From: Aotus nancymaae
Lineage: Eukaryota
Assembly: GCF_030222135.1 (NCBI RefSeq)
Contig: NW_026988420.1
Span: forward strand, 6,579,875 to 6,643,874
Direction: 5' to 3'
Length of the DNA: 64,000 nucleotides
The number at the start of each line of letters is the position of its first letter. Position 1 is the stretch's first letter. Under the pieces are notes generated by a model. The model saw only the letters and a program-made list of their open reading frames with translations. It was not told the origin of the DNA and searched no databases. Positions 8,259-9,175 of this stretch are shown here, one piece after another. The translations under genes were made by a program, and so were the position numbers.

Positions 8259-8510
8259 GAATAGCTAGGGCTACAGGCCTGTGCCACCACACCTGGCTAA
8301 TTTAAAAAAAAAAATTGCAGAGACATGGTCTTACTATGTTGCTCGGGCTTTTTTCAAACTCCTGGGCTCAAGCGATCCTCTTTGCCTCGGCTTCCCAAAG
8401 TGCTAGAATTATAGGTGTGAGCCACCACACCCAGTCTATTTTCCTTTTTAAAATTCTGCAGGAATTTCCAACCTTCTCTTTATCTCTGGTATTCTGAAAT
8501 TTCATAATAA
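8259..8510 (-). repeat. Left arm of an inverted duplication: Alu fragment (minus orientation) plus ~75 bp of unique flank. Pairs with 8923-9175.
   Basis: The reverse complement of 8923-9175 matches this block, including the non-Alu flank attttcctttttaaaattctgcaggaatttccaaccttctctttatctctggtattctgaaatttcataat. Confidence 0.75.
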
Positions 8511-8617
8511 TATATTCATTCATTGTATGTAACTGGTGGTCTTTAGTTCTGAGAAATTTTGTTGTATTAAAAAAATTGTTCCTCTCTCTTGTACCTTTCT
8601 GCAGCGCCTTTCTCTCT

Positions 8618-8921
8618 TTTTTTTTCTTTATTTTTTTTTTTGAGACAGAGTCTCACTCTATCACCCAGGCTGGAGTGCAGTGGTGCTATCACAGCCCACT
8701 GCAACCTCTGCCTCCCGGGTTCAAGTGAATCTAGTGCCTCAGCCTCCCGAGTAGCTAGGACTACAGGTGCCTTTCTCCACACCTGGTTAATTTTTGTATT
8801 TTTAATAGAGACGGGTTTCCCCATGTTGGCCAGGCTGGTCTCGAACTCCTGACCTCAGGTGATTGTCCGCCTCAGCCTCCCAAAGTGATGAGATCACAGG
8901 TGTGAGTCACCACACCCAGCC
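8618..8921 (-). mobile_element. Alu, lying in the spacer between the inverted-duplication arms
   Basis: ttttttttttgagacagagtctcactctatcacccaggctggagtgcag...ggtgtgagtcaccacacccagcc. Confidence 0.9.
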
Positions 8922-8922
8922 A

Positions 8923-9175
8923 ATAATTATGAAATTTCAGAATACCAGAGATAAAGAGAAGGTCTGAAATTCCTGCAGAATTAAAAAGGAAAATAGGCTG
9001 GGTGTGGTGGCTCACACCTGTAATTCTAGCACTTTGGGAAGCCGAGGCAAAGAGGGTTACTTGAGCCCAGGAGTTCAAGAAAAGTCTGGGCAACATAGTG
9101 AGACCCCTGTCTCTACAGAGTTAAAAAAAAAAAATTAGCCACATGTGGTGGCACAGGCTGTAGCCCTAGCTACTG
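8923..9175 (+). repeat. Right arm of the inverted duplication (unique flank plus Alu in + orientation)
   Basis: aataattatgaaatttcagaataccagagataaagagaaggtctgaaattcctgcagaattaaaaaggaaaatag followed by ggctgggtgtggtggctcacacctgtaattctagc..., sharing diagnostic variants with 8259-8440. Confidence 0.75.

What the first reader, a model, noticed from the sequence alone, without database searches (positions are those of the whole stretch)
8259..9175. ~250-bp inverted duplication of an Alu fragment together with its unique flank, arms separated by a 412-bp spacer containing another Alu
Two independent Alu insertions cannot share about 75 bp of non-Alu flanking sequence. Block 8259-8510 (Alu on the - strand plus unique sequence) and block 8923-9175 (unique sequence plus Alu on the +) are reverse complements at roughly 90% identity. 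This is a bona fide inverted segmental micro-duplication inside a PARP4 intron, 350 bp downstream of the 7825-7903 exon. It could form a long stem in pre-mRNA and is a potential substrate for inversion or deletion and for A-to-I editing.
Basis: seen in the sequence. Interest (0 to 1): 0.5.

Follow-up and report, generated by a model that had tools for sequence, protein, structure and literature searches.

The report
Alu insertion that copied neighbouring intron backwards
A 252-base piece of a PARP4 intron (an old Alu fragment plus 75 unique bases) really is duplicated in reverse orientation, most likely as a by-product of a single Alu retrotransposition, which is a rare but already documented outcome and shows no sign of function.

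Summary
8260-8511 and 8923-9174 are reverse complements: 218/253 gapped, 90-92% in ungapped blocks, and 70/75 in the non-Alu flank. The two Alu parts are only 78-80% like an AluJ consensus. They share 19 derived changes, one insertion and the same Alu/flank junction, so they descend from one copy.

The new point concerns the full-length AluS in the spacer (8642-8921, T-tail 8613-8641). It ends one base before the right arm. A 15-nt target-site duplication (8598-8612 / 9178-9192, 13/15, p about 0.005) brackets AluS plus right arm together. AluS alone has no such duplication.

The best reading (about 0.63) is one L1-driven Alu integration. After reaching Alu base 1, synthesis continued for 252 nt on a local plus-sense template, either PARP4 pre-mRNA or the primed DNA end folded back. 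Both outcomes are documented at about 0.1-1% of L1-mediated insertions.

The main rival (about 0.2) is a later replicative inverted duplication that landed at the Alu boundary by chance. It is favoured by the arms being about half as diverged as the AluS age predicts.

The RNA is predicted to form a 250-bp stem. Editing and function are untested. This is a new member of a known kind, of modest interest.

The parts
7825..7903 (+). Upstream exon, PARP4 residues 783-808, AG acceptor and GT donor. It fixes the gene strand as + and places the feature in intron 7904-12734.
   Evidence: Peptide matches PDB chain 11jf_P (PARP4, 1724 aa), E = 1.2e-9. Joined exons match residues 712-920, E = 2.4e-114. 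Coordinates and splice dinucleotides.
8260..8436 (-). Left arm, Alu part: old AluJ-like element, Alu positions 174 to 1, on the - strand. Inferred parent copy.
   Evidence: BLAST to AluJo consensus, 77.5%. Three-way alignment and shared derived states. Alu-like continuation beyond 8259 is only suggestive (p = 0.6).
8301..8316 (.). A/T linker block inverted in the left arm only. It is an A11 run where the right arm (rc) and the Alu consensus (rc) have a T run. It is bounded by AATT palindromes and arose after the duplication.
   Evidence: Alignments; sequences. It forms the only large internal loop in the predicted stem.
8437..8511 (+). Left arm, unique non-Alu flank (75 nt) adjoining the head of the AluJ.
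   Evidence: 70/75 to rc(8923-8995). BLAST E = 1e-27 and no other copy in the window.
8512..8597 (.). Single-copy intron sequence between the parent segment and the insertion site.
   Evidence: No other match in the window.
8598..8612 (+). Left target-site duplication, TCTGCAGCGCCTTTC.
   Evidence: 13/15 to 9178-9192. Local-alignment score reached by 0.4-0.6% of random or shuffled 32-mer pairs. Four control flank pairs gave p >= 0.1.
8613..8641 (-). A-tail of the AluS, seen as the T-rich run TCTCTTTTTTTTTCTTTATTTTTTTTTTT on the + strand.
   Evidence: Sequence.
8642..8921 (-). Full-length AluS, positions 1-282, on the - strand and antisense to PARP4. Its first base is at 8921.
   Evidence: 86% to AluSx consensus over positions 1-289. 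Alignment starts at consensus base 1; 19/233 non-CpG differences. Head sequence GGCTGGGTGTGG.
8922..8922 (.). One extra nucleotide (A) between Alu base 1 and the right arm.
   Evidence: Junction comparison.
8923..9174 (+). Right arm: reverse-complement copy of 8260-8511. The flank copy is 8923-8995 and the AluJ copy in + orientation is 8996-9174. Inferred daughter copy.
   Evidence: It ends at Alu position 174, after which the sequence is unrelated to Alu or to the parent's continuation.
9175..9177 (.). Three filler nucleotides (GCC) between the copy and the right target-site duplication.
9178..9192 (+). Right target-site duplication, TCTGCAGTGCCTCTC.

Best explanation
The inverted duplication is a by-product of one L1-mediated (target-primed reverse transcription) integration of the AluS element.

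Inferred sequence of events:
- The + strand was nicked at about 8612/9193 of the empty site.
- Its 3' end primed on the Alu RNA poly(A), and cDNA was made up to Alu base 1 (8921).
- The growing + strand was not joined to the other DNA end at that point. It was extended by a further 252 nt on a template with + strand polarity, read from 8511 back to 8260. That template lies only about 90-340 nt upstream of the nick.
- The end was then joined to the reciprocal DNA end through 3 filler bases, which kept a 15-nt target-site duplication.

Two templates fit equally well.
(i) The PARP4 pre-mRNA transcribed through the site. It is sense to the + strand, and the Alu is antisense to the gene. This would be a reverse-transcriptase strand switch.
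(ii) The primed DNA strand itself, after 5' resection of its partner. This would be a fold-back.

At birth the product was a perfect 252-bp inverted repeat with a 411-nt loop in the intron. It has since decayed to about 86-90%.

What is shown: the duplication, the shared ancestry of the arms, Alu base 1 abutting the copy, and the direct repeat enclosing Alu plus copy.
What is inferred: that these arose in one event, and which template was used.

No function is indicated. The expected consequence is a long intronic dsRNA stem.
For: (1) The arms descend from one copy made after the AluJ inserted: same Alu/flank junction, 19 shared derived states and 1 shared insertion.
(2) The AluS is complete from base 1, and only one nucleotide separates that base from the first base of the copy.
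(3) A 15-nt direct repeat (13/15, one mismatch a CpG transition) sits where a target-site duplication should. It lies immediately before the T-tail and 3 nt after the end of the copy, so it encloses tail + AluS + copy. p is about 0.005 without requiring adjacency. 15 nt is the modal length for Alu/L1 duplications (PMC2912911; PMC11702581).
(4) AluS alone has no target-site duplication (score 8 against a null mean of 10). No other pairing of flanks gives a significant direct repeat.
(5) Orientation fits the rule that template-switch chimeras carry both parts in the same sense (bioRxiv 10.1101/2025.02.02.635956). In Alu sense the insert reads 5'-[PARP4 intron, sense]-[AluS]-poly(A).
(6) Precedents exist. 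[quoted passage not shown] One insertion co-inserted nearby pre-mRNA (PMC10191854). Three of about 334 induced insertions carried sequence templated from DNA near the site (PMC11702581).
(7) The central third of the arms shows the divergence expected for an event of AluS age: 8/54 non-CpG differences between arms, and a private/total ratio of 0.67 against an AluS/AluJ divergence ratio of 0.75.
Against: - Overall the arms are less diverged than a same-age event predicts. Non-CpG differences are 14 in 197 sites between arms (3.6% per lineage) against 19/233 (8.2%) between AluS and its consensus. The rate ratio is 2.3, p = 0.02, or p = 0.06-0.12 if 2-4 AluS differences belong to its source gene.
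- Rescuing this needs gene conversion between the arms. Support for that is weak: heterogeneity along the arms has p = 0.02-0.07, and part of it is the normal 1.5-fold excess seen in the central part of other Alus.
- The CpG-decay comparison does not discriminate (3/8 against 5/24 surviving, p = 0.38).
- The inferred nick site (CTC/AGTC) is a poor match to the L1 endonuclease consensus TTTT/AA.
- No microhomology is visible at either switch point.
- That the left arm is the parent rests on the model. Its Alu-like continuation beyond 8259 is not significant.
- No orthologous locus could be obtained.
Confidence: 0.63

Rival explanations
1. The AluS came first, and a replicative inverted duplication followed later. 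The AluS integrated normally, with its target-site duplication at 8598-8612 and directly after base 1. Millions of years later a replication template switch or fold-back (FoSTeS/MMBIR type) copied 8260-8511 in reverse. It inserted the copy, by coincidence, exactly between Alu base 1 and the right target-site duplication.
For: - Small inverted duplications are the commonest inversion class in human long-read data: 277 events, median 284 bp, mostly with 0-15 bp microhomology, attributed to replication (PMC12350158). The size here (252 bp) fits.
- The arms look about half as old as the AluS at non-CpG sites (ratio 2.3, p = 0.02-0.12).
- The private/shared ratio over the whole Alu part gives T(dup)/T(AluJ) of about 0.41, against about 0.75 for AluS/AluJ.
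Against: - It needs the insertion point to fall within a window of about 1-4 nt between Alu base 1 and its target-site duplication. That is roughly 0.3-1% if any nearby position were available.
- I found no homology-based reason for a replicative switch at that point. The nascent strand end there is homologous to the AluJ head in direct orientation, not inverted, so it would give a direct duplication.
- The central part of the arms is as diverged as an AluS-age event predicts.
Confidence: 0.2
2. The duplication came first, and the AluS arrived later. An inverted duplication with a spacer of about 100 nt arose by a DNA-level mechanism. The AluS then inserted without a target-site duplication (endonuclease-independent or with a deletion) exactly at the inner edge of the right arm.
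For: Alu insertions into existing sequence are common, and AluS alone shows no target-site duplication.
Against: - The arms would have to be older than the AluS, yet they are less diverged, which is the opposite direction.
- The significant direct repeat enclosing AluS + right arm would be a coincidence (p about 0.005).
- Alu base 1 landing on the arm boundary would be a second coincidence.
Confidence: 0.05
3. Two independent Alu insertions, a chance similarity, a dispersed composite repeat, or an assembly artefact.
For: Alus are abundant in the window (48 Alu-consensus BLAST segments, some of them pieces of one element). Inverted Alu pairs are common.
Against: - The 75-nt non-Alu flank matches at 93% (E = 1e-27) and occurs nowhere else in the window.
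- The Alu/flank junction is identical, with 8 shared non-CpG derived states against at most 3 with any other Alu.
- Arms that differ by 10-14% are not an assembly duplication.
- A dispersed repeat cannot be excluded formally without Dfam. However, it would have to contain an AluJ fragment, so it would itself be a duplication.
Confidence: 0.02

Closest known systems
Complex L1-mediated insertions with extra synthesis at the 5' junction: short fold-back inverted duplications at the target site, and co-insertion of nearby pre-mRNA (Nam et al. 2023, PMC10191854; Mendez-Dorantes et al. 2024, PMC11702581)
   Same: - A poly(A)-tailed retro-insert flanked by a normal-length target-site duplication.
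- Between the element's 5' end and the duplication lies a stretch of tens to hundreds of bases copied from sequence within a few hundred bases of the integration site.
- The result is an inverted duplication.
- Both proposed routes, DNA fold-back and strand switch to local pre-mRNA, were inferred there from the same kind of junction evidence.
   Different: - Those cases are somatic or experimentally induced L1 or pseudogene insertions observed at birth. This one is an old, fixed, germline Alu insertion that has since diverged by about 10%.
[quoted passage not shown] Here the source lies on the poly(A) side (the primed end), so the two arms bracket the Alu.
- The length (252 nt) is slightly above their 52-220 bp range.
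Template-switch chimeric retrocopies (U6/L1, Alu/L1, mRNA/L1 chimeras; Buzdin-type; bioRxiv 10.1101/2025.02.02.635956)
   Same: Two unrelated sequences in the same sense, one poly(A) tail at the 3' end, and one target-site duplication around the whole.
   Different: - The 3' partner is an Alu, not an L1.
- The 5' partner is a piece of the local intron (itself an antisense Alu fragment plus unique sequence), not an abundant small RNA or a spliced mRNA.
- An RNA origin of that partner is not demonstrated.
Small replicative inverted duplications in human populations (PMC12350158)
   Same: The size class (median 284 bp), an inverted copy close to its source, and little or no breakpoint homology.
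   Different: Here one breakpoint coincides with base 1 of a retroelement and the other lies 3 nt from that element's target-site duplication. A replication-only origin does not predict this.
Inverted-repeat Alu pairs (IRAlus) as intronic dsRNA and ADAR substrates
   Same: Opposite-strand Alu sequences a few hundred bases apart in one transcript, with a predicted long duplex.
   Different: - The duplex extends 75 bp beyond the Alu into unique sequence.
- The arms are sister copies (86-90%), not independent Alus (about 75-78% here).
- Editing at this site was not examined. The only PARP4 editing report found concerns an unspecified 3' splice site (PMC5991522).
Twin priming (5'-inverted L1/Alu insertions)
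   Same: An inverted segment at the 5' end of a retro-insert inside a normal target-site duplication.
   Different: In twin priming the inverted segment comes from the same RNA as the rest of the insert. Here it is not AluS sequence but a copy of the neighbouring locus, including unique flank.

Membership tests
L1-mediated (TPRT) Alu insertion | Poly(A) tail at the 3' end of the element | tested here: met
   A 29-nt T-rich run at 8613-8641 directly follows the Alu body on the + strand.
L1-mediated (TPRT) Alu insertion | Target-site duplication of about 7-20 nt flanking the insert | tested here: met
   15 nt, 13/15, p about 0.005, but it flanks AluS + right arm and not AluS alone. Control flank pairs were not significant.
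L1-mediated (TPRT) Alu insertion | Insertion at an L1 endonuclease site (TTTT/AA-like) | tested here: inconclusive
   The reconstructed site ...GCCTCTC/AGTCAGG is pyrimidine-run/purine but a poor match. The age of the event allows decay.
Complex TPRT insertion with locally templated extra sequence (fold-back or pre-mRNA strand switch) | Extra sequence lies between the element's 5' end and the target-site duplication | tested here: met
   Alu base 1 at 8921, copy at 8923-9174, right duplication at 9178-9192.
Complex TPRT insertion with locally templated extra sequence (fold-back or pre-mRNA strand switch) | Extra sequence is a copy of sequence near the integration site | tested here: met
   The source 8260-8511 lies 87-338 nt upstream of the left target-site duplication (8598). 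The arms share derived states and the junction.
Complex TPRT insertion with locally templated extra sequence (fold-back or pre-mRNA strand switch) | Element and extra sequence arose in the same event | tested here: inconclusive
   Junction geometry says yes. The non-CpG clock says the arms look about 2-fold younger (p = 0.02-0.12). The central part of the arms and CpG decay are compatible with one event. Orthologous loci were not obtainable.
Template-switch chimeric retrocopy (RNA-RNA) | Both parts in the same sense relative to their RNAs | tested here: met
   In Alu sense the 5' part equals the + strand, which is PARP4 pre-mRNA sense. The gene strand comes; the rule comes.
Template-switch chimeric retrocopy (RNA-RNA) | The 5' partner was an RNA (for example splice or editing marks, or a known transcript end) | tested here: inconclusive
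   None of the 9 copy-specific changes in the Alu part is the T-to-C (Alu sense) expected from A-to-I editing of the template. The segment contains no splice junction. This neither supports nor excludes an RNA template.
Replicative small inverted duplication (FoSTeS/MMBIR-type) | Inverted copy close to its source, a few hundred bp long | tested here: met
   252 nt with a 411-nt spacer. Compare the median of 284 bp in PMC12350158.
Replicative small inverted duplication (FoSTeS/MMBIR-type) | Breakpoints unrelated to retrotransposition hallmarks, usually with microhomology | tested here: not met
   One breakpoint is 1 nt from Alu base 1 and the other is 3 nt from the target-site duplication. No microhomology is visible.
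Twin-primed 5'-inverted insertion | The inverted segment derives from the same element RNA | tested here: not met
   The right arm carries 75 nt of unique flank and AluJ-specific shared states that are absent from the AluS.
IRAlu dsRNA / ADAR substrate | Opposite-orientation Alus in one transcript able to form long dsRNA | tested here: met
   Both arms lie in intron 7904-12734 of a + strand gene. MFE is -523 kcal/mol against -270 +/- 8.6 for shuffles, z = -29, with the arms paired end to end. This is a prediction only.
IRAlu dsRNA / ADAR substrate | Clustered A-to-G mismatches in RNA | not testable with these tools
   No RNA data or editing database was available. PMC5991522 reports ADAR1-dependent editing of a PARP4 3' splice site, but the location is not given in the text read.

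The most novel reading that the evidence does not exclude
The right arm is a cDNA of the nascent PARP4 pre-mRNA. The L1 reverse transcriptase, having finished an antisense-oriented Alu RNA, switched in cis onto the host gene's own intronic transcript.

If this is general, antisense Alu/L1 integrations into transcribed genes would occasionally create long intronic inverted repeats that are perfect at birth. Those are much stronger dsRNA (ADAR/MDA5-type) substrates than ordinary Alu pairs. Old examples could be found genome-wide by searching for target-site duplications that enclose an element plus an inverted copy of nearby intron.
Probability: 0.25. Interest if true: 0.5.

Novelty: new member of a known kind. 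Interest (0 to 1): 0.3.

Why it matters
It matters little for the biology of this locus. The most likely status is a neutral relic in a 4.8-kb intron.

Its value is as a worked example. An apparently free-standing inverted micro-duplication can be traced to a single retrotransposition by looking for a target-site duplication that encloses the element plus the copy. Rare complex outcomes of L1 activity have been documented in somatic and induced systems. This suggests that they also become fixed in the germline and leave long intronic hairpins.

If the pre-mRNA template reading were proven, it would show a route by which retrotransposition creates near-perfect dsRNA-forming structures inside genes.

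Tried and rejected
- Orthologues. Two exact-pattern scans each of the metagenome and GTDB genome collections found nothing: a 24-mer from the unique flank and a 22-mer from the exon. A protein search with 193 aa of the window's PARP4 exons returned only four hits, none a primate gene.
- Left arm as parent by Alu continuation. The sequence beyond 8259 looks Alu-like by eye, but the local alignment is not better than shuffles (p = 0.6). I do not rely on it.
- Other direct repeats. I tested repeats around the whole structure, around the left arm, and around AluS alone. None was significant.
- Homology-driven explanations for a breakpoint at Alu base 1. The AluS cDNA end is homologous to the AluJ head in direct orientation, which would give a direct duplication. 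Rejected by reasoning on the sequences.
- A-to-I editing footprints in the copy, as evidence for an RNA template. None was found, which is uninformative.
- A molecular clock to separate the one-event and two-event models. Results are mixed.
- The second non-Alu inverted pair in the window (53596-53906 / 56793-57105). It turned out to be two L1 ORF2 fragments, not a second case of this phenomenon.
- One literature query failed on syntax and one returned nothing useful.

Full report
**Observation**

Reading 7700-9700 and searching for repeats shows two adjoining inverted-repeat blocks: 8327-8451 vs 8981-9105 (125 nt, 90%) and 8447-8511 vs 8923-8987 (65 nt, 92%). A gapped local alignment joins them into one 253-column alignment of 8262-8511 with rc(8923-9172), with 218 identities and 6 gap positions. 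Junction inspection puts the limits at 8260-8511 and 8923-9174, separated by 411 nt. The overall figure is 86%, because a 14-16 nt A/T block is inverted in one arm.

**Is it more than two Alus?**

Yes.

This places an AluJ-like fragment at 8255-8432 (-) and another at 8996-9174 (+). Each covers Alu positions 1 to about 174 and is 78-80% identical to the consensus.
- A three-way alignment shows 19 positions where both arms carry the same non-consensus base. Eight of these are at non-CpG sites (30, 32, 45, 55, 85, 86, 164, 167). There is also a shared 1-nt insertion.
- In comparison with 25 other Alus of the window, either arm shares at most 3 such states and at most 78% identity with any other element. 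The arms share 8 states and 88% identity with each other.
- The similarity continues for 75 nt beyond the Alu head into non-Alu sequence: 70/75, 3 substitutions and one 2-nt indel, BLAST E = 1e-27. That sequence has no other copy in the window.

**Context**

The exon at 7825-7903 has AG/GT borders. It encodes a peptide that matches residues 783-808 of PARP4 in the PDB (E = 1.2e-9). Four exon translations from the + strand, joined, match residues 712-920 (E = 2.4e-114). The exons lie at 6799-6963, about 7636-7683, 7825-7903, 12735-12872 and 13991-14188. The feature is therefore in the 4.8-kb intron 7904-12734, 356 nt from the donor site, and the + strand is the sense strand. Four of 193 residues differ from the human chain, so the window is a variant allele, a non-human primate, or a close paralogous copy.

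**The spacer Alu is part of the story**

- The spacer holds a full-length AluS on the - strand (body 8642-8921) with its A-tail seen as a T-rich run at 8613-8641.
- Its first base (8921) is separated from the first base of the right arm (8923) by a single nucleotide.
- I compared the 32 nt to the left of the T-tail with the 32 nt to the right of the right arm. This gives TCTGCAGCGCCTTTC (8598-8612) against TCTGCAGTGCCTCTC (9178-9192): 13/15, with one mismatch a CpG transition. The score is reached by 0.4-0.6% of random or shuffled pairs, even without requiring the observed adjacency.
- The same left flank compared with the sequence immediately after Alu base 1 gives nothing (score 8, null mean 10). 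Four other flank pairings give p >= 0.1.
- The unit bounded by a target-site duplication of canonical length is therefore tail + AluS + right arm (8613-9177, 565 nt), not the AluS alone. The modal length is 14-16 nt in PMC2912911 and 12-18 nt in PMC11702581.

**Mechanism**

The simplest account is one L1-mediated integration.

- The + strand, nicked at the right end of the target-site duplication, primed on the Alu poly(A) and was extended rightwards to Alu base 1.
- It was then extended by a further 252 nt whose sequence is the reverse complement of 8511 to 8260. The template therefore had + strand polarity and lay 90-340 nt upstream of the nick.
- After three filler bases, the end joined the reciprocal DNA end with the target-site duplication intact.

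Two templates have that polarity. One is the PARP4 pre-mRNA, since the gene is on the + strand and the Alu is antisense to it. The other is the primed DNA strand itself, after resection of its partner (a fold-back).

Both have published precedent:

- Among about 1,200 somatic L1 insertions, Nam et al. found 3 (0.3%) with a short fold-back inverted duplication attributed to 52-220 bp of additional DNA synthesis. [quoted passage not shown] They describe self-annealing of the reverse-transcribed end and template-switching reverse transcription as routes to such products (PMC11702581).
- The orientation also obeys the rule that template-switch chimeras carry both parts in the same sense.

I could not separate the two templates. 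The copy carries no T-to-C changes (Alu sense) that would betray editing of an RNA template, and no microhomology survives at either junction.

A geometric difference from Nam et al. should be noted. Their fold-back duplicates sequence on the 5' side of the insert. Here the source lies on the poly(A) side, so the arms bracket the Alu.

**The main objection: age**

If the copy and the AluS were made together, the arms should differ from each other by about twice the AluS's divergence from its source.

- At non-CpG sites the AluS differs from the consensus at 19/233 (8.2%). The arms differ from each other at 14/197, or 3.6% per lineage.
- The rate ratio is 2.3, p = 0.02. It weakens to p = 0.06-0.12 if 2-4 of the AluS differences were already present in its source gene or are errors in my consensus.
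- CpG survival does not discriminate (3/8 against 5/24, p = 0.38).
- The differences between arms are unevenly spread: 8/54 non-CpG sites in Alu positions 60-142, against 6/144 elsewhere including the flank (p = 0.024). The ratio of private to shared derived states differs in the same direction (p = 0.07).
- In the central part the figures are what an AluS-age event predicts. This is the pattern expected if gene conversion homogenised the ends of the arms. However, other Alus in the window also show a 1.5-fold excess of change in that central part, so the support is weak.

**Rivals**

- A later, purely replicative inverted duplication is a real alternative. Such events are the commonest inversion class in 1,019 long-read human genomes: 277 events, median 284 bp, little breakpoint homology (PMC12350158). 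It would also explain the younger-looking arms. Its cost is a coincidence: the copy would have had to land in the 1-4 nt between Alu base 1 and the Alu's own target-site duplication, roughly a 0.3-1% chance. I found no homology that would direct it there.
- The reverse order, duplication first and AluS later, conflicts with the clock in the opposite direction. It also leaves the enclosing direct repeat unexplained.
- Independent Alu insertions, chance and assembly error are excluded by the data above.
- Weighing these, I give the one-event model about 0.63, the later replicative duplication about 0.2, duplication first about 0.05, and the remainder to multi-step histories I have not thought of.

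**Consequences**

Folded as RNA, 8230-9200 gives an MFE of -523 kcal/mol against -270 +/- 8.6 for 20 dinucleotide shuffles (z = -29). The two arms pair from end to end, and the only large internal loop is at the inverted A/T block. This is a prediction.

Whether the stem forms in vivo, is edited, or affects splicing was not testable. The only PARP4 editing report I found concerns an ADAR1-dependent change at an unspecified 3' splice site (PMC5991522). Nothing suggests selection or function.

**What could not be done**

Primate orthologues would settle the order of events, but the available collections contain no copy of this locus. The protein database returned no primate PARP4 gene through which an intron could be fetched.

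**Verdict**

The added value is that it is most likely a fossil of a complex Alu integration and not a free-standing micro-duplication. That makes it a new, old and fixed member of a known but rare class of L1-mediated insertion outcomes. It is of modest interest.

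Noticed in passing
window 8301-8316: A 14-16 nt A/T-rich linker block is inverted in the left arm only. It is an A11 run where the right arm (rc) and the Alu consensus (rc) have a T run. It is bounded by self-complementary AATT. It looks like a post-duplication micro-inversion or short template-switch mutation, and it creates the only large internal loop in the predicted RNA stem.
   Followed up: partly
window exons 6799-6963, 7825-7903, 12735-12872, 13991-14188: The encoded PARP4 segment (residues 712-920) differs from the human PARP4 chain in the PDB at 4 of 193 aligned residues: S for F in VIEFIFS, D for A in LSAAYL, N for D in DLDVDL, and D for S in LASESE. 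The window may be a non-reference haplotype, a non-human primate, or a paralogous copy.
   Followed up: partly
window 53596-53906 and 56793-57105: A second non-Alu inverted repeat: 314 nt at 95.5% identity, about 2.9 kb apart, with three minus-strand Alus in between. By eye, from memory of the L1 sequence and without a database check, both arms look like L1 ORF2-region sequence in opposite orientations. They are therefore either two same-subfamily L1 fragments or a twin-primed L1 with a long overlap. It is not a second case of the Alu-plus-flank structure.
   Followed up: partly
window 13-418 vs 54809-55214, and 589-725 vs 56602-56733: Old direct repeats (about 71% and 77% identity) between the start of the window and the L1-rich region near 55-57 kb. 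They are presumably copies of the same ancient interspersed repeat.
   Followed up: no
window 8232-8259: To the left of the left arm the sequence looks like a continuation of the AluJ (GCTATTCAGGACCTGAAGGGCAGAGGA against consensus GCTACTCGGGAGGCTGAGGCAGGAGGA), but the match is not statistically distinguishable from shuffles. The AluJ lacks its 3' third and A-tail, so an older deletion or rearrangement lies somewhere around 8200-8260.
   Followed up: partly
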